Sequence record: PX530564.1
Reading direction: 5' to 3' (one strand)
DNA length: 58,765 nucleotides
Source: a phage
The notes under the pieces were generated by a model that saw nothing but the letters and a program-made list of their open reading frames with translations, had not been told where the DNA came from and made no database searches. This document shows positions 5,053 through 46,576 of this stretch, one piece after another; position 1 is the first letter of the stretch; every line of letters begins with the position of its first letter. A program made the translations under genes and the position numbers.

Positions 5053-5075
5053 TAATACAACTCACTAAAGGAGAC
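5053..5075 (+). promoter_or_regulatory. T7 RNAP promoter phi4.3-like
   Basis: TAATACAACTCACTAAAGGAGAC upstream of gene 4.3. Confidence 0.7.
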
Positions 5076-5080
5076 ACATC

Positions 5081-5293
5081 ATGTTCAAACTGATTAAGAA
5101 GTTAGGCCAACTGCTGGTTCGTATGTACAACGTGGAAGCTAAACGCCTGAACGATGAGGCTCGTAAAGAGGCAACCCAGTCACGCGCTCTGGCGATTCGC
5201 TCCAACGAACTGGCTGACAGTGCATCAACTAAAGTTACCGAAGCTGCCCGTGTAGCAAACCAAGCTCAACAGCTTTCCAAATTCTTTGAGTAA
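5081..5293 (+). CDS. 4.3: gene 4.3 protein (70 aa)
   Basis: ORF track; MFKLIKKLGQLLVRMYNVEAKRLNDEARKEATQSRALAIRS.. Confidence 0.8.
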   Translation: MFKLIKKLGQLLVRMYNVEAKRLNDEARKEATQSRALAIRSNELADSASTKVTEAARVANQAQQLSKFFE

Positions 5294-5312
5294 TCAAACA
5301 GGAGAAACCATT

Positions 5313-5582
5313 ATGTCTAACGTAGCTGAAACTATCCGTCTATCCGATACCGCTGACCAGTGGAACCGTCGAGTCCACATCAACGTCCGCAACGGTAAGG
5401 CGACTATGGTTTACCGCTGGAAGGACTCTAAGTCCTCTAAGAATCACACTCAACGTATGACGCTGACAGACGAGCAAGCACTCCGTCTGGTCAATGCCCT
5501 TACGAAAGCTGCCGTGACAGCAATCCATGAAGCTGGTCGCGTCAATGAAGCTATGGCTATTCTCGATAAGATTGATAGCTAA
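5313..5582 (+). CDS. 4.5: gene 4.5 protein (89 aa)
   Basis: ATG 5313 with GGAGA RBS inside ORF 5286..5582. Confidence 0.8.
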   Translation: MSNVAETIRLSDTADQWNRRVHINVRNGKATMVYRWKDSKSSKNHTQRMTLTDEQALRLVNALTKAAVTAIHEAGRVNEAMAILDKIDS

Positions 5583-5583
5583 G

Positions 5584-5622
5584 AGTGGTATACTCAAGGT
5601 CGCCCAAGTGGTGGCCTTCATG
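5584..5622 (+). promoter_or_regulatory. RNase III processing hairpin (R4.7-like)
   Basis: ACTCAAGGTCGCCC..GGTGGCCTTCATGG inverted repeat, the recurring T7 RNase III site motif. Confidence 0.45.
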
Positions 5623-5625
5623 GAT

Positions 5626-5650
5626 ACTATTCGACTCACTATAGGAGACA
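5626..5650 (+). promoter_or_regulatory. T7 RNAP promoter phi4.7-like
   Basis: ACTATTCGACTCACTATAGGAGACA. Confidence 0.7.
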
Positions 5651-5655
5651 TTATC

Positions 5656-6063
5656 ATGCGTGACCCTAAAGTTATCCAAGCAGAAATCGCTAAACTGGAA
5701 GCTGAATTGGAGGACGTTAAGTACCATGAAGCTAAGACTCGCTCCGCTGTTCACATCTTGAAGAACTTAGGTTGGACTTGGACAAGACAGACTGGCTGGA
5801 AGAAACCAGAAGTTACCAAGCTGAGCCATAAAGTGTTCGATAAGGACACAATGACCCACATCAAAGCTAGTGATTGGGTGAAGGTCGACATGGGAGTTGT
5901 TGGTGGATATGGCTACGTCCGCTCAGTTAGTGGTAAATACGCACAAGTGTCATACATCACAGGTGTTACCACACGAGGAGCAATCGTTGCTGATAAGACC
6001 AACATGATTCACACAGGCTTCTTGACAGTTGTCTCGTATGAAGAGATAGTTAAGGCACGATAA
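5656..6063 (+). CDS. 4.7: gene 4.7 protein (135 aa)
   Basis: ATG 5656 (MRDPKVIQAEIAKLEAELE..) inside ORF 5527..6063. Confidence 0.8.
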   Translation: MRDPKVIQAEIAKLEAELEDVKYHEAKTRSAVHILKNLGWTWTRQTGWKKPEVTKLSHKVFDKDTMTHIKASDWVKVDMGVVGGYGYVRSVSGKYAQVSYITGVTTRGAIVADKTNMIHTGFLTVVSYEEIVKAR

Positions 6064-6081
6064 TCAATAGGAGAAATCAAT

Positions 6082-8196
6082 ATGATCGTTTCTGACATCG
6101 AAGCTAACGCCCTCTTAGAGAGCGTCACTAAGTTCCACTGCGGGGTTATCTACGACTACTCCACCGCTGAGTACGTAAGCTACCGTCCGAGTGACTTCGG
6201 TGCGTATCTGGATGCGCTGGAAGCCGAGGTTGCACGAGGCGGTCTTATTGTGTTCCACAACGGTCACAAGTATGACGTTCCTGCATTGACCAAACTGGCT
6301 AAGTTACAGTTGAACCGAGAGTTCCACATTCCTCGTGAGAACTGTATCGACACCCTTGTGCTATCACGTTTGATTCACTCGAACCTCAAAGACACCGATA
6401 TGGGTCTTCTGCGTTCCGGTAAGTTGCCCGGAAAACGCTTTGGGTCTCACGCTTTGGAGGCGTGGGGTTATCGCTTAGGTGAAATGAAAGGTGAATACAA
6501 AGACGACTTTAAGCGGATGCTTGAAGAGCAGGGTGAAGAATACGTTGACGGAATGGAATGGTGGAACTTCAACGAAGAGATGATGGCCTATAACGTTCAG
6601 GACGTTGTGGTCACTAAGGCTCTCCTTGAGAAGCTACTCTCTGACAAACATTACTTTCCTCCTGAGATTGACTTTACGGACGTAGGATACACTACTTTCT
6701 GGTCAGAATCCCTTGAGGCCGTTGACGTTGAACATCGTGCTGCATGGTTACTAGCCAAACAGGAGCGTAATGGGTTCCCGTTTGACACGAAAGCAATCGA
6801 AGAGTTGTACGTAGAGTTAGCTGCTCGACGCTCTGAGTTGCTGCGTAAATTGACCGAAACGTTCGGTTCGTGGTATCAACCTAAAGGCGGCACTGAAATG
6901 TTCTGCCATCCGAGGACTGGTAAACCACTTCCTAAGTATCCTCGCATTAAGACACCTAAAGTTGGTGGCATCTTTAAGAAGCCCAAGAACAAGGCACAGC
7001 GAGAAGGTCGTGAGCCTTGCGAACTGGATACCCGTGAGTACGTTGCTGGTGCTCCTTATACTCCGGTCGAGCACGTAGTGTTTAACCCTTCGTCTCGTGA
7101 CCACATTCAGAAGAAACTCCAAGAGGCTGGATGGGTCCCGACTAAGTTCACCGATAAGGGTGCTCCTGTGGTGGACGATGAGGTACTCGAAGGAGTACGT
7201 GTAGATGACCCTGAGAAGCAAGCTGCTATCGACCTCATTAAAGAGTACTTGATGATTCAGAAGAGAATCGGACAGTCTGCTGAGGGTGATAAGGCTTGGC
7301 TTCGTTACGTTGCTGAGGACGGTAAAATTCATGGTTCTGTTAATCCCAACGGCGCTGTTACTGGTCGCGCTACTCACGCTTTCCCTAACCTCGCACAGAT
7401 ACCCGGTGTCCGTTCTCCTTATGGTGAGCAGTGCCGCGCTGCTTTTGGCGCTGAACATCACCTAGATGGTGTTACTGGTGAGCCTTGGGTTCAGGCTGGT
7501 ATCGATGCGTCCGGTCTGGAGCTACGCTGCTTGGCACATTTCATGGCTCGCTTTGATTACGGTGAGTACGCTAGAGAGATTCTTCATGGCGACATCCACA
7601 CTAAGAACCAGCTAGCTGCCGAATTACCTACCCGTGATAACGCCAAGACGTTCATCTATGGGTTCCTCTATGGCGCTGGTGATGAGAAGATTGGACAGAT
7701 TGTTGGTGCTGGTAAAGAGCGCGGTAAGGAACTCAAGAAGAAATTCCTTGAGAACACCCCAGCGATTGCTGCACTCCGCGAATCTATCCAACAGACACTT
7801 GTCGAGTCCTCTCAGTGGGTCGCTGGTGAGCAACGAGTCAAATGGAAACGCCGCTGGATTAAAGGTCTGGATGGTCGTAAAGTACACGTTCGTAGTCCGC
7901 ACGCTGCGTTGAATACCCTCCTGCAATCTGCTGGTGCTCTCATCTGCAAACTGTGGATTATCAAGACAGAAGAGATGCTCGTAGAGAAAGGCTTGAAGCA
8001 TGGCTGGGATGGGGACTTTGCGTACATGGCGTGGGTACACGATGAAATCCAAGTAGGTTGCCGTACCGAAGAGATTGCTCAGGTGGTAATTGAGACCGCA
8101 CAAGAAGCAATGCGCTGGGTTGGAGACCACTGGAACTTCCGGTGTCTTCTGGATACCGAAGGTAAGATGGGTCCTAACTGGGCCGTATGTCACTAA
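6082..8196 (+). CDS. 5: gene 5 DNA polymerase (704 aa, family A with 3'-5' exonuclease and thioredoxin-binding region)
   Basis: ORF track; [26 protein letters not shown].. and polymerase motifs ..[13 protein letters not shown].., ..WVHDEIQ.. Confidence 0.97.
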   Translation: MIVSDIEANALLESVTKFHCGVIYDYSTAEYVSYRPSDFGAYLDALEAEVARGGLIVFHNGHKYDVPALTKLAKLQLNREFHIPRENCIDTLVLSRLIHSNLKDTDMGLLRSGKLPGKRFGSHALEAWGYRLGEMKGEYKDDFKRMLEEQGEEYVDGMEWWNFNEEMMAYNVQDVVVTKALLEKLLSDKHYFPPEIDFTDVGYTTFWSESLEAVDVEHRAAWLLAKQERNGFPFDTKAIEELYVELAARRSELLRKLTETFGSWYQPKGGTEMFCHPRTGKPLPKYPRIKTPKVGGIFKKPKNKAQREGREPCELDTREYVAGAPYTPVEHVVFNPSSRDHIQKKLQEAGWVPTKFTDKGAPVVDDEVLEGVRVDDPEKQAAIDLIKEYLMIQKRIGQSAEGDKAWLRYVAEDGKIHGSVNPNGAVTGRATHAFPNLAQIPGVRSPYGEQCRAAFGAEHHLDGVTGEPWVQAGIDASGLELRCLAHFMARFDYGEYAREILHGDIHTKNQLAAELPTRDNAKTFIYGFLYGAGDEKIGQIVGAGKERGKELKKKFLENTPAIAALRESIQQTLVESSQWVAGEQRVKWKRRWIKGLDGRKVHVRSPHAALNTLLQSAGALICKLWIIKTEEMLVEKGLKHGWDGDFAYMAWVHDEIQVGCRTEEIAQVVIETAQEAMRWVGDHWNFRCLLDTEGKMGPNWAVCH

Positions 8197-8213
8197 TTCT
8201 ATAGGAGGACCTT

Positions 8214-8441
8214 ATGGCACGGCGCTATAGGATTCGCGAAGTTCGAATGGCTACAGGCGAGACTTTATACTACCCACAGTTCCGTCATGCGTGGCTACCA
8301 TTCTGGTTCCACTTTAAGGGCTACACAGTAGAACGCAGGGTGTCATTCACTTATTATGCCGAAGCATTGGGGTTCATCAATGAATGTAAACTAAATGATG
8401 AACCTGAGGAACGGAATGTTATCAGAAACCACTATCTTTAA
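8214..8441 (+). CDS. hypothetical protein (75 aa), block-A-specific insertion between gene 5 and gene 5.5
   Basis: ORF track; AGGAGG RBS 8 nt upstream of ATG; no equivalent in block D where gene 5 abuts 5.5 directly; no recognisable motif. Confidence 0.5.
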   Translation: MARRYRIREVRMATGETLYYPQFRHAWLPFWFHFKGYTVERRVSFTYYAEALGFINECKLNDEPEERNVIRNHYL

Positions 8442-8454
8442 AGGAGAAATCATT

Positions 8455-8754
8455 ATGGCTATGACCAAGAAATTTAAAGTGTCCTTTGACGTTACCGCTA
8501 AGATGCCGTCTGACGTTCAGGCAATCATCGAGAAAGACATGCTGCACTTGTGTAAGCAGGTTGGCTCCGGTGCTATTGTCCCAGATGGTAAGCAGAAGGA
8601 AATGATTGTCCAGTTCCTGACACACGGTATGGAAGGCGTGATGACGTTCGTAGTGCGTACAGCGTTTCGTGAGGCTGTCAAGGACATGCACGAAGAGTAT
8701 TCCGATAAGGACTGCTTCAAGCTATCTCCTGCAACTGTACGGGAGGTGTTCTAA
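8455..8754 (+). CDS. 5.5: gene 5.5 protein (99 aa)
   Basis: ATG 8455 with AAGGAG RBS inside ORF 8395..8754; MAMTKKFKVSFDVTAKMPSDVQAIIEKDMLHLCKQ.. Confidence 0.85.
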   Translation: MAMTKKFKVSFDVTAKMPSDVQAIIEKDMLHLCKQVGSGAIVPDGKQKEMIVQFLTHGMEGVMTFVVRTAFREAVKDMHEEYSDKDCFKLSPATVREVF

Positions 8755-8963
8755 TGTCTGACTACCTGAAAGTACTGCAAGCAATCAAAGGTTGCCCTAA
8801 GACTTTCCAGTCCAACTATGTACGGAACAATGCGAGCCTCGTAGCGGAGGCCGCTTCCCGTGGTCACATCTCATGCCTGACTACGAGTGGACGTAACGGT
8901 GGAGCTTGGGAAATTACCGCTTCCGGTACTCGCTTTCTGAAACGAATGGGAGGATGTGTCTAA
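8754..8963 (+). CDS. 5.7: gene 5.7 protein (69 aa)
   Basis: ORF track; start overlaps 5.5 stop. Confidence 0.8.
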   Translation: MSDYLKVLQAIKGCPKTFQSNYVRNNASLVAEAASRGHISCLTTSGRNGGAWEITASGTRFLKRMGGCV

Positions 8964-9121
8964 TGGTACGTGACACTGTAACTATTCCTCGTGATGCGTG
9001 GAACGATATGCAGGGTTATATTGATTCTCTGGAACGTGAGAACGATAGCCTTAAGAACCAGCTTATGGAAGCTGACGAGTACGTAGCTGAACTAGAGGAG
9101 AAACTTAATGGCGCTTCTTGA
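8963..9121 (+). CDS. 5.9: gene 5.9 protein (52 aa), RecBCD inhibitor in T7
   Basis: ATG 8963 overlapping 5.7 stop; MVRDTVTIPRDAWNDMQGYIDSLERENDSLKNQLMEADEYVAELEEKLNGAS. Confidence 0.75.
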   Translation: MVRDTVTIPRDAWNDMQGYIDSLERENDSLKNQLMEADEYVAELEEKLNGAS

Positions 9122-10010
9122 CCTTAAACAATTCTACGAGTTACGTGAAGGCTGTAACGATAAAGGCATCCTTGTGATGGATGGCGACTGGTTAGTCTTC
9201 CAAGCTATGAGTGCCGCCGAGTTTGATGCCTCTTGGGAGGAAGAGATTTGGCACCGCTGCTGTGACCACGCTAAGGCCCGTCAGATTCTTGAGGATTCCA
9301 TCAAATCCTACGAGACCCGTAAGAAGGCTTGGGTAGGCGCTCCGATTGTCCTCGCGTTCACCGATAGTGTTAACTGGCGTAAAGAACTAGTTGACCCGAA
9401 CTATAAGGCTAACCGTAAGGCCACGAAGAAACCTGTAGGTTACTTTGAGTTCCTTGAGGCTCTCTTCGAGCGAGAAGAGTTTTACTGCATTCGTGAGCCG
9501 ATGCTTGAGGGTGATGACGTTATGGGGGTTATTGCTTCCAATCCGTCTGCATTCGGTGCTCGTAAGGCGGTAATCATCTCGTGCGATAAGGACTTTAAGA
9601 CCATCCCTAACTGTGACTTCCTGTGGTGTACCACTGGCAACATCCTGACTCAGACAGAAGAATCAGCGGACTGGTGGCATCTCTTCCAGACCATCAAAGG
9701 TGACATTACCGATGGTTACTCAGGGATTGCCGGATGGGGTGATACCGCTGAGGACTTCTTGAATAACCCGTTCATTACCGAGCCTAAGACCTCTGTGCTT
9801 AAGTCTGGTAAGAATAAGGGGCAGGAGGTTACTAAATGGGTTAAACGCGACCCTGAGCCTCATGAGACGCTTTGGGACTGCATTAAGTCCATCGGTGCGA
9901 AGGCTGGTATGTCCGAAGAGGATATCATCAAGCAGGGCCAGATGGCTCGAATCCTACGGTTCAACGAGTACAACTTTATCGACAAGGAGATTTACCTGTG
10001 GAGACCGTAG
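9108..10010 (+). CDS. 6: gene 6 5'-3' exonuclease (300 aa)
   Basis: ORF track; FEN/PIN-like 5' nuclease at the T7 gene 6 position. Confidence 0.92.
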   Translation: MALLDLKQFYELREGCNDKGILVMDGDWLVFQAMSAAEFDASWEEEIWHRCCDHAKARQILEDSIKSYETRKKAWVGAPIVLAFTDSVNWRKELVDPNYKANRKATKKPVGYFEFLEALFEREEFYCIREPMLEGDDVMGVIASNPSAFGARKAVIISCDKDFKTIPNCDFLWCTTGNILTQTEESADWWHLFQTIKGDITDGYSGIAGWGDTAEDFLNNPFITEPKTSVLKSGKNKGQEVTKWVKRDPEPHETLWDCIKSIGAKAGMSEEDIIKQGQMARILRFNEYNFIDKEIYLWRP

Positions 10011-10021
10011 CGTATATCGGT

Positions 10022-10111
10022 ATGGGCCTTTGTGGTCTCGGAGTGTTCCTCATTGCGTGGGGACTTTGGGACTTAGCCAGAACAATCAAGGCGTTACACG
10101 ACACTAAGTGA
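10022..10111 (+). CDS. 6.3: gene 6.3 small hydrophobic protein (29 aa)
   Basis: ATG 10022, MGLCGLGVFLIAWGLWDLARTIKALHDTK, TGA 10109-10111. Confidence 0.5.
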   Translation: MGLCGLGVFLIAWGLWDLARTIKALHDTK

Positions 10112-10131
10112 TAAACTCAAGGTCCCTAAAT

Positions 10132-10154
10132 TAATACGACTCACTATAGGGAGA
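10132..10154 (+). promoter_or_regulatory. T7 RNAP class III promoter phi6.5-like
   Basis: TAATACGACTCACTATAGGGAGA exact consensus, embedded in a CTCAAGGTCCC..GGGGCCTTTATGAT hairpin (R6.5-like). Confidence 0.9.
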
Positions 10155-10208
10155 TAGGGGCCTTTATGATTATTACTTTAAGATTTAACTCTAAGAGGAA
10201 TCTTTATC

Positions 10209-10463
10209 ATGTTGACACCTATTAACAATTTACTTAAGAACCCTAACGATATTCCAGATGTACCTCGTGCAACCGCTGAGTATCTACAGGTTCGATTCAA
10301 CTATGCGTACCTCGAAGCGTCTGGTCATATAGGACTTATGCGTGCTAATGGCTGTAGTGAGGCCCACATCTTGGGTTTCATTCAGGGTCTACAGTATGCC
10401 TCTAACGTCATTGACGAGATTGATGTACGTAAGGAACAACTAAGAGATGATGGGGAGGATTGA
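10209..10463 (+). CDS. 6.5: gene 6.5 protein (84 aa)
   Basis: ORF track. Confidence 0.8.
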
Positions 10464-10467
10464 CCTT

Positions 10468-10734
10468 ATGTGTTTCTCACCGAAAGTTAAAGTTCCGAAG
10501 ATGGATACCAATCAGATTCGAGCCGTTGAACCAGCGCCTCTGACCCAAGAAGTGTCAAGCGTGGAGTTCGGTGGGTCTTCTGATGAGACGGATACCGAAG
10601 GCACAGAAGTGTCTGGACGCAAAGACCTCAAGGTCGAACGCGATGATTCAGTAGAGAAATATAAAGCTACGAATACTGGTTCCGCTCGTATGAAATCTTC
10701 AATCCGTAAGTCTGCATTCGGAGGCAAGAAGTGA
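10468..10734 (+). CDS. 6.7: gene 6.7 protein (88 aa; virion and ejected protein in T7)
   Basis: ATG 10468 inside ORF 10447..10734; MCFSPKVKVPKMDTNQIRAVEPAPL.. Confidence 0.8.
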   Translation: MCFSPKVKVPKMDTNQIRAVEPAPLTQEVSSVEFGGSSDETDTEGTEVSGRKDLKVERDDSVEKYKATNTGSARMKSSIRKSAFGGKK

Positions 10735-19544: not shown

Positions 19545-21788
19545 ATGAGTAAGATTGAATCTGCCCTTCAAGCGGCACAGCCGGGACTCTCTCGGTTACG
19601 TAGTGGCGCTGGTGGTATGGGCTACAGGGCCGCATCTACACAAGCTGAGCAACCTAAGTCCAGCCTACTGGACACCATTGGTCGATTCGCTAAGGCAGGT
19701 GCTGACATGTATGCAGCAAAGGAGCAAAGAGCACGCGACCTTGCTGATGAACGCTCTAACGAGATTATCCGTAAGTTGACCCCTGAGCAACGCCGAGAGG
19801 CCCTCAATAACGGGACCCTTCTGTATCAGGATGACCCATACGCTATGGAAGCACTACGAGTCAAGACTGGTCGCAACGCTGCGTACCTCGTCGATGATGA
19901 TGTTATGCAGAAGGTCAAAGAGGGTGTCTTCCGTACTCGTGAAGAGATGGAACAGTATCGCCATAGTCGTCTTCAAGAGGGCGCGAAGGCATACGCTGAG
20001 CAGTTCGGGATTGACCCTGAGGATGTTGACTATCAGCGTGGTTTCAACGGAGACATTACCGAGCGTAACATTTCGCTGTATGGTGCACACGATAACTTCT
20101 TGAGCCAACAAGCTCAGAAGGGTGCCATCATGAACAGCCGAGTGGAACTCAACGGTGTACTTCAAGACCCTGATATGCTTCGTCGCCCAGACTCCGCTGA
20201 CTTCTTTGAGAAGTACATCGACAATGGTCTGGTTACTGGAGCTATCCCGTCTGACGCTCAGGCTACACAGCTTATTGGTCAAGCGTTCAGTGATGCTTCC
20301 AGCCGTGCTGGTGGTGCTGACTTCCTGATGCGAGTTGGCGACAAGAAGGTAACACTCAACGGAGCCACTACGACTTACCGAGAGTTGATGGGCGAAGAGC
20401 AGTGGAATGCACTTATGGTCACAGCGCAACGGTCTCAGTTTGAGAACGACGCTAAGTTGAACGAGCAGTACCGCTTAAAGATTAACTCTGCGTTGAACCA
20501 AGAAGACCCTCGTACTGCGTGGGAGATGCTTCAAGGTATCAAAGCGGAACTCGATAAGGTGCAACCTGATGAACAGATGACACCCCAACGTCAGTGGTTA
20601 ATCTCGGCACAGGAGCAAGTTCAGAACCAGATGAATGCATGGACGAAAGCTCAGGCCAAGGCTCTGGATGATTCCATGAAGTCGATGAACAAACTTGATG
20701 TAATCGACAAGCAGTTCCAGAAGCGAATCAACGGTGAGTGGGTCTCAACGGACTTCAAGGACATGCCTACCAACGAGAACACTGGGGAGTTCAAGCATAG
20801 CGATATGGTTAACTACGCCAATAAGAAACTAGCTGAGATTGACCGTATGGATATTCCAGATGGCGCTAAGGACGCTATGAAGTTGAAGTACCTTCAAGCT
20901 GACTCTAAGGACGGTGCATTCCGTACAGCTATCGGAACCATGGTAACAGACGCTAGTCAAGAGTGGTCTGCCGCTGTGATTAACGGTAAGCTGCCTAGCA
21001 ATACTCCAGCTATGAACGCTCTACGTAGAATCCGTAATGCTGACCCACAGTTGATTGCTGCATTGTATCCAGACCAAGCCGAGTTATTCTTAACGTTGGA
21101 CATGATGGACAAGCAAGGTATCGACCCTCAGGTTATTCTTGATGCTGACAGACTGAGTGCCAAACGCTCCAAGGAGCAACGCTTCGAAGACGATAAGGCG
21201 TTCGAGTCTGCCCTGAATAGCTCAACCGCACCTGAGATTGCCCGTATGCCAGCGGCGCTTCGTGACTCTGCTCGTAAGATTTATGACTCCGTTAAATACC
21301 GCTCAGGTAACGAGAGCATGGCTATGGAGCAGATGTCAAAGTTCCTTAAGGAATCTACATACACGTTTACCGGAGACGATGTCGATGGTGATACAGTGGG
21401 CGTAATCCCTAAGAACATGATGCAAGTCAACTCGGACCCAAAATCGTGGGAACAAGGTCGTGATATTTTGGAGGAAGCACGTAAGGGAATCATAGCGAAC
21501 AACCCTTGGATTACCAACAAGCAACTTACCATGTATTCTCAAGGTGACTCCATTTACCTTATGGACACAACTGGTCAAGTACGCATCCGGTATGACAAAG
21601 AGTTACTCTCGAAGGTCTGGAGTGAGAACCAGAAGAAACTTGAAGAGAAAGCGCGTGAGAAAGCATTGAAGGATGTCAACAAGCGAGCACCTATCACTGC
21701 TGCTACCAAGGCTCGTGAAGCTGGTGCTAAACGAGTCCGAGAGAAACGTAAACAGACTCCGAAGTTCATCTATGGACGTAAGGAGTAA
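19545..21788 (+). CDS. 15: gene 15 internal core protein C (747 aa)
   Basis: ORF track. Confidence 0.9.
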   Translation: MSKIESALQAAQPGLSRLRSGAGGMGYRAASTQAEQPKSSLLDTIGRFAKAGADMYAAKEQRARDLADERSNEIIRKLTPEQRREALNNGTLLYQDDPYAMEALRVKTGRNAAYLVDDDVMQKVKEGVFRTREEMEQYRHSRLQEGAKAYAEQFGIDPEDVDYQRGFNGDITERNISLYGAHDNFLSQQAQKGAIMNSRVELNGVLQDPDMLRRPDSADFFEKYIDNGLVTGAIPSDAQATQLIGQAFSDASSRAGGADFLMRVGDKKVTLNGATTTYRELMGEEQWNALMVTAQRSQFENDAKLNEQYRLKINSALNQEDPRTAWEMLQGIKAELDKVQPDEQMTPQRQWLISAQEQVQNQMNAWTKAQAKALDDSMKSMNKLDVIDKQFQKRINGEWVSTDFKDMPTNENTGEFKHSDMVNYANKKLAEIDRMDIPDGAKDAMKLKYLQADSKDGAFRTAIGTMVTDASQEWSAAVINGKLPSNTPAMNALRRIRNADPQLIAALYPDQAELFLTLDMMDKQGIDPQVILDADRLSAKRSKEQRFEDDKAFESALNSSTAPEIARMPAALRDSARKIYDSVKYRSGNESMAMEQMSKFLKESTYTFTGDDVDGDTVGVIPKNMMQVNSDPKSWEQGRDILEEARKGIIANNPWITNKQLTMYSQGDSIYLMDTTGQVRIRYDKELLSKVWSENQKKLEEKAREKALKDVNKRAPITAATKAREAGAKRVREKRKQTPKFIYGRKE

Positions 21789-21814
21789 CTAAAGGCTACA
21801 TAAGGAGGCCCTAA

Positions 21815-24800
21815 ATGGATAAGTACGATAAGAACGTACCAAGTGATTATGATGGTCTGTTCCAAAAGGCGGCTGATGCCAACGGGGTCTCTTATGACCT
21901 TTTACGTAAAGTCGCTTGGACAGAATCACGATTCCAACCAACAGCTAAATCTAAGACTGGACCCTTAGGTATGATGCAGTTCACCAAGGCAACCGCCAAG
22001 GCAATGGGATTGCGCGTTACCGATGGTCCAGACGATGACCGACTGAACCCTGAGTTGGCTATCAACGCTGCCGCTAAGCACCTTGCAGGTCTGGTTGGTA
22101 AGTTTGATGGCGATGAACTTAAAGCTGCCCTTGCGTATAACCAAGGTGAGGGACGCTTGGGTAATCCACAACTTGAGGCATACTCTAAGGGTGACTTCTC
22201 GGCTATCTCCGAGGAGGGACGAAACTACCTACGTAATCTTCTGGATGTTGCCAAGTCTCCTATGGCTGGACAGTTGGAAGCATTCGGTGGTATCACCCCA
22301 AAGGGTAAAGGCATTCCGGCTGAGGTAGGACTTGCTGGTATTGGACATAAGCAGAAGGTTACACAGGACCTTCCTGAGTCCACAAGTTTCGACGTTAAGG
22401 GTATCGAACAGGAGGCTCCGGCGAAACCATTCGCCAAGGACTTTTGGGAGACCCACGGAGAAACGCTTGACGAGCACAACAACCGTTCAACCTTCTTCGG
22501 ATTCAAAGACGCTGCCGAAGCTGAACTCTCCAACTCAGTCGCTGGGATGGCTTTCCGTGCTGGTCGTCTTGATAACGGTTTTGACGTGTTTAAAGACACC
22601 ATTACGCCGACTCGCTGGAACTCTCACATCTGGACTCCAGAAGAGTTAGAGAAGATTCGAACCGAGGTTAAGAACCCTGCGTACATCAACGTGGTGACTG
22701 GTGGTTCTCCTGAGAATCTTGATGACCTCATTAAGTTAGCCAACGAGAACTTTGAGGCTGACTCACGCGCTGCTGAGGCTGGTCTGGGTGCTAAGCTGAG
22801 TGCTGGTGTTATTGGTGCTGGCGTAGACCCACTGAGCTATGTTCCGATGGTTGGTGTCACAGGTAAAGGCTTTAAGCTAATCAATAAGGCACTCGTTGTT
22901 GGCGCTGAGAGTGCAGCACTTAACGTTGCTTCCGAGGGACTTCGAACCTCAGTCGCTGGAGGTGACTCCGACTATGCTGGTGCTGCCTTAGGTGGCTTTG
23001 TGTTCGGTGCTGGTATGTCTGCAATCAGTGACGCTATCGCTGCTGGACTCAAACGTGGTAAACCAGAAGCCGAGTTCGACAATGAGTTCATTGGCCCTAT
23101 GATGCGAATGGAAGCCCGTGAGACAGCGCGTAACGCTAACTCTACTGACCTTTCTCGGATGAACACAGAAAACATGAAGTTTGAAGGTGAGCACAACGGT
23201 GTGCCCTATGAAGACCTTCCTGCTGAGAAGGGTGCTGTGGTACTCCATGACGGTTCTGTGATTAGCGCAAGTAACCCAATCAACCCTAAGACACTCAAAG
23301 AGTTCTCTGAGGTTGACCCTGAGAAGGCTGCGTGGGGCGTTAAACTGGCAGGGTTCACTGAGATTGGCTTGAAGACCTTAGGGTCTGACGATGCCAATAT
23401 TCGCAGGATAGCGATTGACCTTGTTCGTTCTCCTACTGGGATGCAATCGGGTGCCTCAGGTAAGTTTGGAGCTACTGCATCTGACATCCACGAGAGACTC
23501 CACAGTACCGACCAGAGAACCTACAACGACCTGTACAAAGCAATGTCAGACGCTATGAAAGACCCTGAGTTCTCTACAGGTGGCTCTAAGATGTCACGAG
23601 AAGAGGCTCGTTACACTATCTACCGTAGAGCGGCATTGGCTATTGAGCGTCCAGAACTACAGAAGGTTCTCACTCCGTCTGAGCGTATAGTAATGGACAT
23701 CATTAAGCGCCACTTTGACACTAAGCGTGAACTCATGGAGAATCCAGCAATCTTCGGTAATACGAAGGCTGTAAGCATCTTCCCTGAGAGTCGCCATAAA
23801 GGAACCTACGTCCCGCACGTTTACGACCGTCACGCCAAGGCTCTGATGATTCAACGGTACGGTGCCGAAGGGTTACAGGAAGGTATTGCCCGTTCTTGGT
23901 TGAACAGCTATGCCTCCCGCCCTGAGGTCAAAGCGCGTGTTGATGAGATGCTCAAGGAAGTTCATGGGGTAAAGGAAGTTACGCCGGAGATGGTTGAGAA
24001 GTACGCTATGGACAAGGCATACGGTATCTCTCATTCAGACCAGTTCACTAACAGTTCTGTGATTGAAGAGAACATTGAGGGCCTAGTAGGTATTGAGAAC
24101 AACTCGTTCCTTGAAGCTCGTAACTTGTTTGACTCTGACTTATCTATCACGATGCCTGATGGACAACAGTTTGCCGTGAATGACCTAAGGGACTTCGACA
24201 TGTTCCGCATCATGCCTGCATATGACCGCCGTATCAATGGAGACATTGCTATCATGGGGTCTACCGGTAAAACCACTCAGGAACTTAAGGACGAGATTCT
24301 AGCACTCAAAGCAAGTGCTGAGGGTAACGGTAAGAAGACTGGCGAGGTTCATGCTCTTATGGATACCGTTAAGATTCTCACCGGACGTGCTCGACGTAAT
24401 CACGACACAGTTTGGGAAACCTCGCTGCGTTCTATCAATGACTTAGGGTTCTTCGCTAAGAACGCCTATATGGGTGCTCAGAACCTTACTGAGATTGCTG
24501 GGATGATTGCTACTGGTAACGTCCGTGCTCTCGGTCACGGTATTCCGATTCTTCGTGATACTCTCTATAAGTCTAAACCAGTTTCCGCTAAGGAACTCAA
24601 GGAACTCCATGCGTCTCTGTTCGGGAAGGAAGTGGACCAGTTGATTCGACCTAAACGTGCTGACATTGTTCAGCGATTAAGGGAGGCAACTGATACAGGA
24701 CCGATGGTTGCGAACATCGTAGGGACCTTGAAGTATTCCACACAGGAATTGGCTGCTCGTTCTCCGTGGACGAAGATGCTTAATGGGACCACTAACTATC

Positions 24801-25771
24801 TTCTTGATGCTGCCCGTCAAGGTATGCTTGGGGATGTGATTAGTGCCACCCTATCTGGTAAGACTACTCGCTGGGAGAAGGAAGGATTCCTCCGTGGTGC
24901 ATCGGTAACGCCTGAACAGATGAAAGGAATCAAGGCGCTCATCAAGGAACACATGGTTCGCGGTGAGGATGGTAAGTACACTGTCAAGGATAAGCAAGCG
25001 TTCTCTATGGACCCTAGGGCTATGGACCTGTGGCGACTGGCTGATAAGGTTGCAGATGAGGCTATGCTACGTCCACATAAGGTGTCCTTACAGGATTCCC
25101 ATGCTTTTGGTGCGCTTGGTAAGATGGTAATGCAGTTCAAATCGTTTACCATCAAGTCGCTGAACTCTAAGTTCATCAAGCTCTTCTATGATGGCTACAA
25201 GAATAGCCGTGCGGTTGATGCTGCCTTGACAGGTATCATCTCCATGGGGCTTGCTGGTGGCTACTATGCGATGGCTGCACACGTCAAAGCATATGGAATG
25301 CCTAAGGAGAAACGTAAGGAGTACTTAGAGCGAGCACTGGACCCAACCATGATTGCTCACGCTTCCTTGTCTCGTAGTTCTCAATTGGGTGCACCTTTAG
25401 CTATGGCTGACCTTATTGGTGGTGCGTTCGGTGTAGAATCTTCTAAGATGGCTCGTTCCACGATTCTACCTAAGGATACCATGAAGAAACGAGACCCTAA
25501 CAAGCCTTACACCTCGTGGGAGGTAATGGGTGCTATGGGTTCAAACCTTCTGGAGCAGATGCCTTCGGCTGGCTTTGTGGCTAACGTTGGTGCTACCCTA
25601 CTGAACACTGCTGGTGTGGTTAATGCTCCCAACAAGGCTACCGAGCAGGACTTCATGACTGGCTTGATGAACTCTACAAAAGAGTTAGTTCCTAACGACC
25701 CTTTGACTCAACAGCTTGTGTTGAAGATTTATGAGGCCAATGGTGTCAATTTGAAGGAGCGTCGGAAATAA
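21815..25771 (+). CDS. 16: gene 16 internal core protein D with N-terminal lytic transglycosylase domain (1318 aa)
   Basis: ORF track; N-terminal ..ESRFQPTAKSKTGPLGMMQFT.. SLT-like motif. Confidence 0.92.
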   Translation: MDKYDKNVPSDYDGLFQKAADANGVSYDLLRKVAWTESRFQPTAKSKTGPLGMMQFTKATAKAMGLRVTDGPDDDRLNPELAINAAAKHLAGLVGKFDGDELKAALAYNQGEGRLGNPQLEAYSKGDFSAISEEGRNYLRNLLDVAKSPMAGQLEAFGGITPKGKGIPAEVGLAGIGHKQKVTQDLPESTSFDVKGIEQEAPAKPFAKDFWETHGETLDEHNNRSTFFGFKDAAEAELSNSVAGMAFRAGRLDNGFDVFKDTITPTRWNSHIWTPEELEKIRTEVKNPAYINVVTGGSPENLDDLIKLANENFEADSRAAEAGLGAKLSAGVIGAGVDPLSYVPMVGVTGKGFKLINKALVVGAESAALNVASEGLRTSVAGGDSDYAGAALGGFVFGAGMSAISDAIAAGLKRGKPEAEFDNEFIGPMMRMEARETARNANSTDLSRMNTENMKFEGEHNGVPYEDLPAEKGAVVLHDGSVISASNPINPKTLKEFSEVDPEKAAWGVKLAGFTEIGLKTLGSDDANIRRIAIDLVRSPTGMQSGASGKFGATASDIHERLHSTDQRTYNDLYKAMSDAMKDPEFSTGGSKMSREEARYTIYRRAALAIERPELQKVLTPSERIVMDIIKRHFDTKRELMENPAIFGNTKAVSIFPESRHKGTYVPHVYDRHAKALMIQRYGAEGLQEGIARSWLNSYASRPEVKARVDEMLKEVHGVKEVTPEMVEKYAMDKAYGISHSDQFTNSSVIEENIEGLVGIENNSFLEARNLFDSDLSITMPDGQQFAVNDLRDFDMFRIMPAYDRRINGDIAIMGSTGKTTQELKDEILALKASAEGNGKKTGEVHALMDTVKILTGRARRNHDTVWETSLRSINDLGFFAKNAYMGAQNLTEIAGMIATGNVRALGHGIPILRDTLYKSKPVSAKELKELHASLFGKEVDQLIRPKRADIVQRLREATDTGPMVANIVGTLKYSTQELAARSPWTKMLNGTTNYLLDAARQGMLGDVISATLSGKTTRWEKEGFLRGASVTPEQMKGIKALIKEHMVRGEDGKYTVKDKQAFSMDPRAMDLWRLADKVADEAMLRPHKVSLQDSHAFGALGKMVMQFKSFTIKSLNSKFIKLFYDGYKNSRAVDAALTGIISMGLAGGYYAMAAHVKAYGMPKEKRKEYLERALDPTMIAHASLSRSSQLGAPLAMADLIGGAFGVESSKMARSTILPKDTMKKRDPNKPYTSWEVMGAMGSNLLEQMPSAGFVANVGATLLNTAGVVNAPNKATEQDFMTGLMNSTKELVPNDPLTQQLVLKIYEANGVNLKERRK

Positions 25772-25791
25772 TACGACTCACTATAGGGAGA
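25769..25791 (+). promoter_or_regulatory. T7 RNAP class III promoter phi17-like
   Basis: TAATACGACTCACTATAGGGAGA overlapping gene 16 stop. Confidence 0.9.
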
Positions 25792-25841
25792 GGAGAAGGT
25801 CTTCTCCCTGTAGTATTCTAGATTTACTTTAAGGAGGTCAA

Positions 25842-27518
25842 ATGGCTAACGTAATTAAGACCGTTTTGACTTACCCGCTGGATGGCTCTACGCGTGATTT
25901 TAATATTCCGTTTGAGTATCTAGCCCGTAAGTTCGTAGTGGTAACTCTTATTGGCGTAGACCGTAAGGTCCTTACGATTAATACAGACTATCGCTTTGCT
26001 ACACGCACTACCATCTCTCTGACCAAGGCTTGGGGTACAGCCGATGGTTATACGACCATTGAGTTGCGTCGAGTAACCTCCACTACAGACCGCTTGGTTG
26101 ACTTTACGGATGGCTCAATCCTCCGTGCTTATGACCTTAACGTGGCCCAGATTCAGACGATGCATGTAGCGGAAGAGGCCCGTGACCTAACTGCGGATAC
26201 CATTGGTGTCAATAATGATGGTCACTTGGACGCCCGTGGTCGCCGTATCGTGAACCTAGCGAACGCCGTGGATGACCGTGACGCTGTTCCGTTTGGTCAA
26301 CTTAAGACCATGAACCAGAACTCGTGGCAAGCGCGTAATGAAGCCTTACAGTTCCGCAATGAGGCTGAGACTTTCCGTAACCAAGCGGAGGGCTTTAAGA
26401 ACGAGTCCAGCACTAACGCTTCGAATACCAATCAGTGGCGTAATGAGGCTAAGGGGTTCCGAGATGAGGCCGAACAGTTTAAGAACACTGCGACACAACA
26501 GGCTACCGCTGCTAGTGGCTCTGCGACGGCTGCTCACCAATCTGAGGTGAACGCTGCGAACTCTGCAAAAGAATCTGCTAACTCTGCTACTTTGGCAGAA
26601 CAACAAGCAGACCGTGCGGAACGTGAAGCTGACAAGCTGGGTAACTGGAATGCACTTGCAGGTGCCGTTGATAAAGTAGTGGGCGTAGATGTGTACTTTA
26701 AAGGGGTTCTCTTTTGCCGTCAAGGAGTACAGGTATTATCCTCTACCGTTCAAGGGGACCTATATCGCTCCGGTCTTTGGAGAGATACTGCTGGCAACCT
26801 TTTCTACGACTATGTACTTGAGCGTGGAACAGGTACAGGACGTGCGTTTTCAACTTTAGTCTATGAAGCTAGTGGGAATAATTACACCAAGTTTGACAGC
26901 AGAACATACCATGTAAGGGACATCCAGACTGGCTGGAGCGGAGCCAGGTCTTACGCAGACCAGTGGAATGAGAGTGCCCCATTGTGGGGTACGGTTCCAG
27001 ATGGTGCCCGTAACGAGTACTTTCCTCTTATTAAACAGCGTTCCTATCAATCCGGAATAGACGCCAAAGCATGGCATCAAGGTATTCTAGTGCAAGGTGA
27101 CGGTAAGAACGTGTGGAACATCGTGTTTACAGATGAGGGCGGTAACGTTAGAGTGTGGACATTCGACGGAGATGGTAGCTTTTGGTCTCCTATGGATATC
27201 AATGCCTCGCGGCAGGTGATCTCTGGCTCTTTCAGAACACATGGTGGCGGTACGCTCAACGGTGAAGGTCGTGTATACGGCTCTGCATACGATGGTGGCT
27301 ACCTTGACGACTGGGTTCGAAGACATTTCATAGGGGATGTCTACCTAGGACCTCACGTGTGGAACCAGTACGGTGGAGGCTATCACGACATTATAGCGCC
27401 ATCTGGACATGTCCAAACAGGCACAACCGTTAATAATGGGGGTGTTGCTGGTATCTTTGTAAGACCAGTATGGCTTGGTTTCCATAACGGCACAAAAAGA
27501 ATCATTGCGTCACAGTAA
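25842..27518 (+). CDS. 17: gene 17 tail fibre (558 aa): conserved N-terminal module plus a C-terminal receptor-binding module unlike T7 and unlike block E
   Basis: ORF track; N-terminus MANVIKTVLTYPLDGSTRDFNIPFEYLARKF..; diverges from the block-E fibre after ..FKG (about aa 285). Confidence 0.9.
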   Translation: MANVIKTVLTYPLDGSTRDFNIPFEYLARKFVVVTLIGVDRKVLTINTDYRFATRTTISLTKAWGTADGYTTIELRRVTSTTDRLVDFTDGSILRAYDLNVAQIQTMHVAEEARDLTADTIGVNNDGHLDARGRRIVNLANAVDDRDAVPFGQLKTMNQNSWQARNEALQFRNEAETFRNQAEGFKNESSTNASNTNQWRNEAKGFRDEAEQFKNTATQQATAASGSATAAHQSEVNAANSAKESANSATLAEQQADRAEREADKLGNWNALAGAVDKVVGVDVYFKGVLFCRQGVQVLSSTVQGDLYRSGLWRDTAGNLFYDYVLERGTGTGRAFSTLVYEASGNNYTKFDSRTYHVRDIQTGWSGARSYADQWNESAPLWGTVPDGARNEYFPLIKQRSYQSGIDAKAWHQGILVQGDGKNVWNIVFTDEGGNVRVWTFDGDGSFWSPMDINASRQVISGSFRTHGGGTLNGEGRVYGSAYDGGYLDDWVRRHFIGDVYLGPHVWNQYGGGYHDIIAPSGHVQTGTTVNNGGVAGIFVRPVWLGFHNGTKRIIASQ

Positions 27519-28645: not shown

Positions 28646-28763
28646 GTACCACAAGCAGTAAGGGTGTAGGGATAGGAACCGAGAAACCTGCCCGCGACCC
28701 GCCACGGATAAGGCACTAGCTATGAGTCGAATTCGGTCACTCATCGCATAAAAGAATAACAGG

Positions 28764-28792
28764 TTGACAGCCTCCTTTAAAAGCTGTAAGAT
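28764..28792 (+). promoter_or_regulatory. additional sigma70-like promoter inside a 137-bp block shared with 40531..40667
   Basis: TTGACAGCCTCCTTTAAAAGCTGTAAGATGTACC (-35 TTGACA, -10 TAAGAT). Confidence 0.45.
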
Positions 28793-29070
28793 GTACCACA
28801 GAAAGACACCGAGTGTCGTAGGTGTAAAAACGCGACATAGTGGATAGATGCCGAAAGCACAAGCGACCACGATAATAAAGAGCTTGTCGGAAATGTAACG
28901 CAAGTGACGGCTAACACTGAAACAGCCTCGGCTCGACGAAACTGTAGCTTAAAGTTCTTTAACAATTTGGTAAATAGCTCTTGGGTGCACGAATAGCGGA
29001 TAACTCAAGGGTATCGCAAGGTGCCCTTTATGATATCCACTAACATTCACATACAATGAGGTAACACAAG

Positions 29071-29421
29071 ATGGCTATGTCTAACATGACTTATAACAAC
29101 GTTTTCGACCACGCTTACGAAATGCTGAAAGAAAACATCCGTTATGATGACATCCGTGACACTGATGACCTGCACGATGCAGTACACATGGCAGCCGATA
29201 GCGCCGTTCCGCACTATTACAGCGACATTTTCAGCGTAATGGCAAGCGAGGGCATTGACCTTGAGTTCGAAGACTCTGGTCTGATGCCGGACACCAAGGA
29301 CGTAATCCGTATCCTGCAAGCACGTATCTATGAGCAACTCACAATCGACCTTTGGGAAGACGCTGAGGACTTACTGAACGAGTATCTTGAGGAAGTCGAA
29401 GCAGAAGAGGATGAAGAGTAA
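29071..29421 (+). CDS. ocr: gene 0.3 Ocr, DNA-mimic anti-restriction protein (116 aa)
   Basis: ORF track; [36 protein letters not shown].. with acidic C-terminus. Confidence 0.93.
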
Positions 29422-29576
29422 TGGCCAACAACACCACGCAATATGGTCTGACCGCTCAAACTGTACTGTTTTATAGTGACATGGTGCGCTGTGGATTTGA
29501 TTGGTCGCTCGCAATGGAACACCTTAAGGAACTGTATGAAAACAACAAGGCAATAGCCTTGGAGTCTGCTGAGTGA
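29421..29576 (+). CDS. 0.4: gene 0.4 protein (51 aa)
   Basis: ATG 29421 overlapping ocr stop, TGA 29574-29576. Confidence 0.65.
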   Translation: MANNTTQYGLTAQTVLFYSDMVRCGFDWSLAMEHLKELYENNKAIALESAE

Positions 29577-29625
29577 TAAACTCAAGGTCGCTCCTAGCGA
29601 GTGGCCTTTCATGATTATCACTTTA
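29577..29625 (+). promoter_or_regulatory. RNase III processing hairpin (R0.5-like)
   Basis: AACTCAAGGTCGCTCCTAGCGAGTGGCCTTTCATGATTATCAC. Confidence 0.4.
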
Positions 29626-29643
29626 CTTACGGGAGTAATGTAT

Positions 29644-29769
29644 ATGCTTACTATCGGTCTACTCACCGCTCTGGGTCTAGCTGTAGGCGCATCCTTTGGG
29701 AAGTCTTTGGGCGTAGCTGTAGGCTCTTACTTGGTCGCTTGTATCATCACGGGAGCACTGCGCAAATGA
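29644..29769 (+). CDS. 0.5: gene 0.5 small membrane protein (41 aa)
   Basis: ATG 29644, MLTIGLLTALGLAVGASFGKSLGVAVGSYLVACIITGALRK. Confidence 0.6.
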   Translation: MLTIGLLTALGLAVGASFGKSLGVAVGSYLVACIITGALRK

Positions 29770-29906
29770 TGAAACATTACGTTATGCCTATCCACACCAA
29801 GAACGGTGCTACAGTTTGCACACCTGATGGCTTCGCAATGAAACAACGCATTGAGCGCCTTAAGCGCGAACTGCGCATCAACCGCAAGCGTCTTCAACTA
29901 GGCTGA
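29766..29906 (+). CDS. 0.6: gene 0.6-like protein (46 aa)
   Basis: ATG 29766 overlapping 0.5 stop; MMKHYVMPIHTKNGATVCTPDGFAMKQRIERLKRELRINRKRLQLG. Confidence 0.55.
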   Translation: MMKHYVMPIHTKNGATVCTPDGFAMKQRIERLKRELRINRKRLQLG

Positions 29907-29931
29907 AATTCTTGTAACTAAAGGCAACTGT

Positions 29932-30386: not shown

Positions 30387-30399
30387 AGGACACACTGTA

Positions 30400-39064: not shown

Positions 39065-40537
<1,473 letters not shown>

Positions 40538-40631
40538 GGATAGGAACCGAGAAACCTGCCCGCGACCCGCCAAGGATAAGGCACTAGCTATGAGTCGAAT
40601 TCGGTCACTCATCGCATAAAAGAATAACAGG

Positions 40632-40660
40632 TTGACAGCCTCCTTTAAAAGCTGTAAGAT
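40632..40660 (+). promoter_or_regulatory. sigma70-like promoter inside the shared 137-bp block (block C copy)
   Basis: TTGACAGCCTCCTTTAAAAGCTGTAAGATGTACC; block 40531..40667 near-identical to 28663..28799. Confidence 0.45.
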
Positions 40661-41353: not shown

Positions 41354-41421
41354 TAGGCTCAAGGTCGCTCGATATGAGTGGCCTTTATGATTATCACTTT
41401 ACTTGAATGGGAGTAATGCAC

Positions 41422-46557: not shown

Positions 46558-46576
46558 TTCTATAGGAGAAATTATT

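What the first reader, a model, noticed from the sequence alone, without database searches (positions are those of the whole stretch)
8197..8454. Unknown 75-aa ORF inserted between DNA polymerase and gene 5.5 in block A only
A ~240-bp insertion relative to block D carries a well-initiated ORF (AGGAGG RBS) encoding an aromatic-rich protein (..LYYPQFRHAWLPFWFHFKGYTVERRVSFTYY..) with no motif I recognise. This intergenic site holds a homing endonuclease (gene 5.3) in T7 as I recall it, so it is a hotspot for accessory cargo.
Basis: partly seen in the sequence, partly recalled or inferred. Interest (0 to 1): 0.5.

Follow-up and report, generated by a model that had tools for sequence, protein, structure and literature searches.

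The report
Small swappable T7-like phage accessory gene
The 75-codon ORF is a real, selected, but uncharacterised small accessory gene that some T7-like phages carry between the DNA polymerase gene and gene 5.5 and swap as a cassette; it is neither new nor a nuclease, and its function is still unknown.

Summary
An ATG ORF (8214..8441, 75 aa) with an AGGAGG ribosome-binding site fills the 258-nt gap between the DNA polymerase gene and gene 5.5. The window's second genome copy has a 19-nt gap there instead. The ORF is not new. It matches PHROG 18049 (unknown function, E 2.5e-40), annotated elsewhere as gp5.1, 5.01, hypothetical or, without support, "putative homing endonuclease". About 31 of 583 gp5.5-bearing phage records have it, always in this slot. 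It is under purifying selection and is unrelated to T7 gp5.3, which is a PD-(D/E)XK-family nuclease. It moves as a cassette: it is 95% identical to the Berlinvirus CarlSpitteler copy, while the flanking genes are T7-type and only 68-75% identical to CarlSpitteler's. An exhaustive search finds about 80 clusters of remote relatives, all small and unnamed. Two AlphaFold2 models agree on a β-hairpin, short strands, one helix and a conserved flexible tail. No significant fold or family match exists; WGR and YegP-like similarities are weak. The most likely role, by inference only, is a dispensable middle-gene protein that binds a host or competitor factor, like its neighbours gp5.5, gp5.7 and gp5.9. 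Interest is low to moderate.

The parts
8203..8208 (+). Ribosome-binding site AGGAGG of the 75-aa ORF. It is also the left border of the indel and of the exchanged cassette.
   Evidence: sequence; the left junction TAATTCTATAGGAG is shared with NC-A and with block D.
8214..8441 (+). Coding sequence of a 75-aa, 9.4-kDa basic, aromatic-rich protein of the gp5.1/5.01 family (PHROG 18049).
   Evidence: purifying selection; AlphaFold2 models; exact protein in 4 metagenome contigs.
8220..8288 (+). Codons 3-25: the N-terminal β-hairpin (YRIxEV ... G ... YYPQFR). It is the most conserved part and holds R6, P21 and Q22, which are invariant or nearly so across the superfamily.
8355..8396 (+). Codons 48-61: the single α-helix, the least conserved element.
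8397..8438 (+). Codons 62-75: the C-terminal tail DEPEE..VIRNHYL. It is predicted to be flexible yet is as conserved as the hairpin, so it is a candidate partner-binding motif or a terminal strand.
   Evidence: pLDDT 58-72; top-residue frequency 0.78, against 0.56 for the helix.
8439..8448 (+). Right junction TAAAGGAGAA: the ORF's stop codon overlaps the gene 5.5 ribosome-binding site. It is the right border of the 95%-identity tract shared with CarlSpitteler and of the indel.
46558..46576 (+). The empty slot in the second genome copy: a 19-nt spacer with one AGGAG between the polymerase stop and the gene 5.5 ATG.

Best explanation
Shown: this is a real protein-coding gene for a 75-residue basic, aromatic-rich protein. 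It belongs to an already catalogued but uncharacterised family (PHROG 18049; 'gp5.1' in Cronobacter phage Dev2; '5.01' in Citrobacter phage CR8). In T7-like phages (Studiervirinae) the family is found only between gene 5 (DNA polymerase) and gene 5.5. It is dispensable and patchy, and it is exchanged between phage genera as a gene-sized cassette. The exchange borders fall on the short conserved junctions, namely the two ribosome-binding sites. Inferred: it is transcribed with the middle (class II) genes by the phage RNA polymerase and translated from its own strong ribosome-binding site. It folds into a small β-sheet capped by one helix and acts stoichiometrically by binding another macromolecule rather than as an enzyme. 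The most likely partner is a host factor or a defence or competitor component, engaged through the conserved hairpin face and the conserved C-terminal tail. That is how the small proteins immediately downstream work: gp5.5 binds H-NS, gp5.7 binds sigma-S RNA polymerase, and gp5.9 binds RecBCD. Which factor it binds is unknown.
For: Gene reality and family: full-length PHROG 18049 match, E 2.5e-40. 31 phage records carry it, all with at least 95% query coverage and all in the polymerase/5.5 slot. Further homologues P0001-P0017 come mostly from contigs of about 39-40 kb. pN is 0.23-0.28 against pS 0.81-0.98, and dN/dS is 0.21 against the closest relative. The exact protein occurs in 4 independent metagenome contigs with the same gene order, 97.6-99.6% identical to the window. 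Accessory status: the family is in about 31 of 583 records that carry gp5.5. It is absent from the 92%-identical block D. It is absent from SH4 and SH5, close relatives of Dev2 (PMC4925675). Cassette exchange: the ORF is 95.2% identical to CarlSpitteler, while polymerase, 5.7 and gene 6 are 68-75% identical to that phage and 91-97% identical to T7 and NC-A. NC-A and CQ615 carry a 46-47%-identical allele between identical junctions. Not an enzyme or nuclease: no Pfam, NCBIfam or PADLOC hit, only one Asp and one Cys, and no significant fold match. Binder inference: the neighbours were confirmed as gp5.5 and gp5.9 by Pfam. The tail is predicted flexible but strongly conserved. Remote relatives in larger phages lie within long runs of small unannotated ORFs. 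Phage accessory regions are reported to be enriched in counter-defence genes (bioRxiv 10.1101/2023.04.06.535777).
Against: No direct evidence for any partner or phenotype exists. Guilt by association in a compact 40-kb phage is weak. The family was not found in the supplements of the accessory-gene screen that was checked. The basic N-terminal half (pI 10.6) and weak resemblances to nucleic-acid-binding folds (WGR E 0.056; Pur-alpha; dsRBD) fit a DNA/RNA-binding role equally well. Even relatives at about 30% identity sit right after the polymerase gene, which could mean a replication-linked role.
Confidence: 0.5

Rival explanations
1. It is a nucleic-acid-binding accessory of replication or recombination. 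A small β-sheet-plus-helix domain (WGR-, PUR- or YegP-like), basic on its hairpin face, would bind DNA ends, nicks or RNA and act with the adjacent DNA polymerase and exonuclease genes.
Confidence: 0.2
2. It is a selfish or protective 'slot filler'. It would persist because occupying the polymerase/5.5 junction destroys the target site of the free-standing endonucleases (gp5.3-type, HNH) that invade this slot. Alternatively it spreads by co-conversion during such homing events, and the protein has little function of its own.
For: The same slot alternatively holds gp5.3-type and HNH endonuclease genes or is empty. The ORF is exchanged as a discrete cassette with borders at the junction sequences.
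Against: Strong purifying selection acts on the protein sequence, with invariant residues kept down to 44% identity. A mere spacer would not need that. Remote relatives also exist in large phages outside this slot.
Confidence: 0.1
3. It is a homing endonuclease or a degenerate remnant of gene 5.3, as four GenBank records annotate it ('putative homing endonuclease') and as the first reader suggested might be the case.
For: Position only. T7 and phiYeO3-12 carry endonuclease-type genes in this slot. CarlSpitteler, ErnstBeyeler, WW1 and CQ615 use that label.
Confidence: 0.03
4. It is not a functional gene, only a chance ORF or an annotation artefact in an intergenic insert.
For: It is small, has no known domain, and its GC content is slightly lower than its neighbours' (0.447 against 0.48-0.51).
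Against:: it is conserved at full length across genera, synonymous change far exceeds nonsynonymous change, it has a consensus ribosome-binding site, and a confident structure is predicted.
Confidence: 0.02

Closest known systems
PHROG 18049, which includes Cronobacter phage Dev2 gp5.1, Citrobacter phage CR8 5.01 (UniProt W6PUQ3) and CarlSpitteler bas68_0032
   Same: Full-length HMM match (E 2.5e-40). Same length (74-77 aa). Same slot between gene 5 and gene 5.5. 46-95% identity. The predicted structure matches the CR8 protein model (TM 0.87).
   Different: Nothing essential differs: the window's gene is one more allele. Here it sits in a T7-type (Teseptimavirus-like) backbone although the allele is of the Berlinvirus type.
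T7 gene 5.3 protein (PF11645, PD-(D/E)XK endonuclease family) and the phiYeO3-12/T3-type gp5.3 'homing endonuclease'
   Same: It occupies the same genomic slot and is equally dispensable and patchy.
   Different: There is no sequence similarity and no nuclease domain. It is shorter (75 aa against 110-118 aa) and has a different predicted fold.
T7 class II small host-factor inhibitors: gp5.5 (H-NS), gp5.7 (sigma-S RNA polymerase), gp5.9 (RecBCD), gp1.2 (dGTPase), gp4.5 (PF17574 TA_inhibitor)
   Different: There is no homology to any of them, and no target is known. The likeness is one of proposed mode of action, not of family.
WGR domain (PF05406; PARP1-3) and UPF0339/YegP (DUF1508) small β-sheet-plus-helix domains

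Membership tests
PHROG 18049 (gp5.1/5.01 family of Studiervirinae) | Full-length match to the family profile | tested here: met
   E 2.5e-40, residues 1-75 on profile positions 1-75 of 75.
PHROG 18049 (gp5.1/5.01 family of Studiervirinae) | Conserved position between the DNA polymerase gene and gene 5.5 of a T7-like genome | tested here: met
   window; relatives.
PHROG 18049 (gp5.1/5.01 family of Studiervirinae) | Family-invariant residues present (Y5, R6, E9, Y19, P21, Q22, P29, F30, W31, A51, E63, E65) | tested here: met
   all are present in the window protein.
T7 gp5.3 / PDDEXK_5 (PF11645) | Sequence similarity to gp5.3 or to the Pfam model | tested here: not met
   best local match is 5 of 12 residues, E 0.036 for a single comparison; no Pfam hit at E up to 10, whereas T7 gp5.3 itself scores 1.1e-10.
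T7 gp5.3 / PDDEXK_5 (PF11645) | PD-(D/E)XK catalytic motif (an Asp followed downstream by (D/E)-x-K) on an α/β nuclease core | tested here: not met
   The only Asp is D62, and no (D/E)xK follows it. The model has a hairpin, short strands and one helix.
HNH, GIY-YIG and LAGLIDADG homing endonucleases | Catalytic domain detectable by profile; for HNH, His/Asn/His with a metal-binding ββα core | tested here: not met
   no Pfam family at E up to 10. One Cys only. Fold searches give no significant nuclease match.
HNH, GIY-YIG and LAGLIDADG homing endonucleases | Site-specific cleavage of the empty allele | not testable with these tools
   Needs purified protein and block-D-type DNA as substrate.
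WGR domain (PF05406) | Match to the Pfam model, or a significant profile-profile match | tested here: not met
   no WGR hit among the listed families. PARP3 WGR at E 0.056 only; hhalign probability 34%.
WGR domain (PF05406) | Structural superposition on solved WGR domains | tested here: inconclusive
UPF0339 / YegP (DUF1508) | Fold similarity and a profile match | tested here: inconclusive
Phage counter-defence or host-takeover small proteins (a functional class, not a homology family) | Binds and neutralises a host or defence factor; confers a host-dependent plating phenotype | not testable with these tools
   Only context supports this. The family was not found in the screen supplements searched.

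The most novel reading that the evidence does not exclude
The 75-aa protein would be the T7-like branch of a large, unnamed superfamily of small phage proteins. About 80 clusters at 50% identity share the consensus KYRIxE..G..YYPQYK..FW.F....F..eA..FI (PHROGs 18049, 8363, 12822, 24605, 34121 and 13062, all of unknown function). The superfamily would have a fold not clearly related to any solved structure and would act as a new class of counter-defence or host-takeover factor. In T7-likes a conserved flexible C-terminal motif (DEPEV..VVRNHYL) would dock it onto its target.
Probability: 0.25. Interest if true: 0.55.

Novelty: new member of a known kind. Interest (0 to 1): 0.27.

Why it matters
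On its own it matters little: it is one more allele of a catalogued hypothetical gene in a well-studied phage group. Three points have some value. First, four GenBank records call this family a 'putative homing endonuclease', and no evidence found here supports that label. Second, the locus is a clean example of gene-cassette exchange at ribosome-binding-site junctions between Berlinvirus-type and T7-type genomes. It also shows that the polymerase/5.5 junction is a multi-cargo hotspot. Third, T7 is among the best-characterised phages, and most of its small middle proteins have turned out to be specific inhibitors of host factors. A conserved, confidently folding 9-kDa protein in that neighbourhood, with natural plus and minus variants only about 8% diverged, is therefore a cheap and tractable candidate for finding a new target.

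Tried and rejected
- **gp5.3 remnant:** rejected by BLASTP and Pfam.
- **Homing endonuclease:** rejected.
- **Foldseek against PDB:** nothing significant, best E 0.14.
- **BFVD:** only uncharacterised phage proteins.
- **afdb50 fold search:** library unavailable.
- **RNA element, promoter or terminator in the interval:** none.
- **Domain fusions as functional clues:** the long 'hits' P0028 and P0053 are repeat-protein artefacts. The word-indexed search with the superfamily profile added no named or multi-domain proteins.
- **Contexts of several remote relatives:** on contigs too short to say anything.
- **Literature:** no paper containing the peptide. No hit in the supplements of the accessory-gene screen. 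The only mention is that Dev2 gp5.1 is missing from SH4 and SH5.

Full report
**1. What is in the sequence**

The window encodes a T7-type family A DNA polymerase (6082..8196, 704 aa; Pfam DNA_pol_A). Its stop codon TAA lies at 8194-8196. Then come AGGAGG at 8203-8208, a 5-nt spacer and ATG at 8214. The open frame runs to TAA at 8439-8441, giving 75 codons.

The stop codon overlaps the ribosome-binding site of the next gene (TAAAGGAG). That gene starts at 8455 and is gene 5.5 (Pfam Phage_T7_55, E 2.7e-63). It is followed by a 69-aa ORF in the gene 5.7 position (96.7% nt identical to T7 gene 5.7), then gp5.9 (Pfam) and the gene 6 exonuclease.

The protein is 9.4 kDa, has pI 9.25 and is 20% aromatic. 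Its first 47 residues are strongly basic (pI 10.6) and the rest is acidic (pI 4.7). Rfam finds nothing in the whole window. A promoter and terminator scan of 7900-8800 finds nothing above background.

**2. The 'insertion'**

The window is a composite of two related T7-like genome copies (self-BLAST). Positions 5073-8207 align with 43434-46568 at 92.6% identity, and 8430-10602 align with 46552-48721 at 90.3%.

In the second copy the polymerase stop (46557) and the gene 5.5 ATG (46577) are 19 nt apart: TAATTCTATAGGAGAAATTATTATG. In the first copy the distance is 258 nt, a difference of 239 nt. No second copy or remote paralogue of the ORF exists in the window.

The borders of the indel fall on the two ribosome-binding sites (TATAGGAG... 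and TAAAGGAG...), and the second copy keeps one of them. The sequence therefore cannot tell whether the first copy gained the gene or the second lost it by recombination between the two short repeats.

The arrangement is natural and not an artefact of the composite window. The exact protein occurs in four metagenome contigs from several samples. These have the same order (polymerase, ORF, 5.5, 5.7, and where the contig is long enough 5.9 and exonuclease) and are 97.6-99.6% identical to the window over the region.

**3. It is a real gene of a catalogued family**

The protein matches PHROG 18049 ('unknown function') over its full length at E 2.5e-40.

tblastn finds it in 31 phage records. All are genomes of about 38-41 kb, and those examined in detail belong to Studiervirinae (Berlinvirus, Teseptimavirus, Caroctavirus). 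Their hosts are Escherichia, Salmonella, Shigella, Citrobacter, Cronobacter, Klebsiella, Yersinia and Erwinia. A consensus query adds only Pantoea phage SK1.

In each locus examined in detail it lies directly between the polymerase gene and gene 5.5. It is annotated as 'hypothetical protein', 'gp5.1' (Dev2) or '5.01' (CR8). Four records label it 'putative homing endonuclease'.

The large protein collection adds 17 clusters of 74-77 aa, mostly from contigs of about 39-40 kb.

Distant pairs differ at 0.23-0.28 of nonsynonymous sites while synonymous sites are saturated (0.81-0.98). Against the closest relative dN/dS is 0.21. Twelve residues besides the initiator Met are invariant across 18 sequences down to 43% identity. 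This is a protein under purifying selection, not a chance ORF.

**4. It is accessory and moves as a cassette**

gp5.5 homologues occur in 583 phage records, but this family occurs in only 31, about 5%. A spread sample of records matching the 1.2-kb region shows several states of the slot:
- Usually it is empty, with spans of about 941-962 nt for the 1201-nt query.
- T7 wild type and Kvp1 carry gene 5.3 (spans 1326 and 1282 nt).
- Several phages with an HNH or 'homing' endonuclease annotated under the match have longer spans (1265-1563 nt).
- A few, such as EG1 and P483, carry this ORF.

The literature notes that Dev2 gp5.1 is missing from its close relatives SH4 and SH5 (PMC4925675).

The window's flanking genes are of the T7 type. 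The polymerase 3' end is 93% identical to T7, gene 5.5 is 95.6% identical to NC-A, gene 5.7 is 96.7% identical to T7 and gene 6 is 93% identical to T7. The ORF, however, is 95.2% identical to that of the Berlinvirus CarlSpitteler, whose flanking genes are only 68-75% identical to the window's.

The tract of high identity begins at about the ATG and ends at the gene 5.5 ribosome-binding site. The T7-type phages NC-A and CQ615 carry a different allele (46-47% amino-acid identity) between junction sequences nearly identical to the window's.

The gene has therefore been exchanged between genera as a unit, with crossovers in the short conserved junctions.

**5. It is not gene 5.3 and not a nuclease**

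T7 gp5.3 (118 aa) belongs to Pfam PF11645, a PD-(D/E)XK endonuclease family (E 1.1e-10). BLASTP between gp5.3 and the 75-aa protein gives only a 12-residue match that is not meaningful.

The 75-aa protein has no Pfam hit even at E 10, and no hit in NCBIfam or PADLOC. It has one Asp and one Cys. I found no evidence for the 'putative homing endonuclease' label, which may rest only on the gene's position.

**6. Wider relatives and fold**

An exhaustive HMMER search of 1.84 billion representative proteins found 84 hits at E < 0.001. Two long ones are repeat-protein artefacts. The rest are mostly stand-alone proteins of 60-100 aa that share the pattern KYRIxE..G..YYPQYK..FW.F....F..eA..FI. R6 is invariant, and P21, Q22, W31 and A51 are nearly so.

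These relatives map to PHROGs 18049, 8363, 12822, 24605, 34121, 13062 and 2010 (the last with a single member). All are of unknown function, and no consistent Pfam family appears.

Two of them at about 30% identity again sit between the polymerase gene and gene 5.5 of other T7-like contigs. Two others lie in 58-kb and 81-kb phage contigs within long runs of small unannotated ORFs.

AlphaFold2 gives a confident model with the family alignment (pLDDT 84.8, pTM 0.69). The deeper superfamily alignment gives the same layout (pLDDT 78.3):
- a β-hairpin at residues 3-11 and 17-25
- short strands around residues 32-45
- one helix at residues 48-61
- a low-confidence tail at residues 62-75

Within the T7-like family that tail (DEPEV..VVRNHYL) is as conserved as the hairpin and more conserved than the helix. 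Top-residue frequencies are 0.78, 0.80 and 0.56 respectively.

Fold searches were uninformative:
- BFVD returns only uncharacterised phage proteins; the CR8 protein matches at TM 0.87.
- Foldseek against PDB finds nothing significant.

The only sequence-level lead was the PARP3 WGR domain, with E 0.056 against 177,635 sequences and the secondary-structure elements in the same order (the segment was confirmed as WGR). hhalign against a PARP2/PARP3 WGR profile gives 34% probability, and PARP1 and PARP2 were not hit. The link is not established.

**7. How it most likely works**

Shown: the gene is real, selected, dispensable, horizontally exchanged and without any catalytic signature.

Inferred: it is a stoichiometric binder made in the middle period. 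The proteins encoded immediately downstream are all small inhibitors of host proteins. From established knowledge of T7, gp5.5 targets H-NS, gp5.7 targets sigma-S RNA polymerase and gp5.9 targets RecBCD. gp5.5 and gp5.9 were confirmed here by Pfam.

Variable accessory regions of phage genomes are reported to be enriched in counter-defence genes (bioRxiv 10.1101/2023.04.06.535777). A conserved but flexible tail is what a docking motif would look like.

I put about 0.5 on 'binds a host, defence or competitor factor'. I put about 0.2 on a nucleic-acid-binding role linked to replication, given the basic hairpin, the weak WGR/PUR/YegP likeness and the persistent position after the polymerase gene. 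I put about 0.1 on a largely selfish slot-filler or hitch-hiker role, and very little on nuclease or non-gene readings.

**8. Verdict**

The gene is a new allele of a known, uncharacterised family, so I rate it a new member of a known kind. Interest is low to moderate. The most novel reading not excluded is that the wider superfamily is an unrecognised class of phage counter-defence proteins with a fold not clearly related to solved structures.

Noticed in passing
window 36260-58765, compared with 1-36260: The window is a composite or rearranged join of two related T7-like genome copies about 86-98% identical. In the second copy, gene 4 is cut short at 40537 (485 aa against 567 aa). It is followed by a second version of an early-region segment (40531-42757 resembles 28663-31228). 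The copy then jumps from gene 6 (48721) straight to sequence homologous to 21231-26673 (the gp15/16 region), skipping about 10.6 kb. This looks like a chimeric assembly, a concatenation or a defective recombinant.
   Followed up: partly
window 8455-8754 compared with 46577-46873: The gene 5.5 alleles of the two copies are only 69% identical in nucleotides, while the genes on both sides are 92-94% identical. The 5' part of the block D allele resembles the CarlSpitteler (Berlinvirus) allele. Gene 5.5 therefore seems to be swapped as a cassette as well, right next to the ORF under study.
   Followed up: partly
GenBank MZ501055 (bas68_0032), MZ501064, OP161218, PQ010280: Four phage records annotate this 75-76-aa family as 'putative homing endonuclease'. 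No sequence, motif or fold evidence found here supports that label, and it could spread to further annotations.
   Followed up: yes
L001 (T7 NC_001604) 2484-2840: RefSeq lists T7 gene 5.3 as 'hypothetical protein', but it matches Pfam PF11645, a PD-(D/E)XK endonuclease family, at E 1.1e-10. Several deposited T7 records (MZ375257, MZ375279, PV223882) lack it, with spans of 988 nt against 1326 nt.
   Followed up: partly
L006 (Klebsiella phage K12P1.1) 2226-2558 and L008 6721-7053: In some carriers of the family, the gp5.9 position is taken by a 110-aa protein of Pfam PF26835 (Phage_T4_Y04K), which one record labels 'ribonucleotide reductase'. The 5.7-to-6 interval is therefore a second variable slot.
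   Followed up: no
P0058 (167 aa), P0072 (241 aa), P0030 and P0048 (about 100 aa): A few remote relatives depart from the stand-alone form. One has two tandem copies of the domain. One has the domain at the C-terminus of a longer protein. Two have an N-terminal hydrophobic, probably membrane-spanning, segment in front of it.
   Followed up: no
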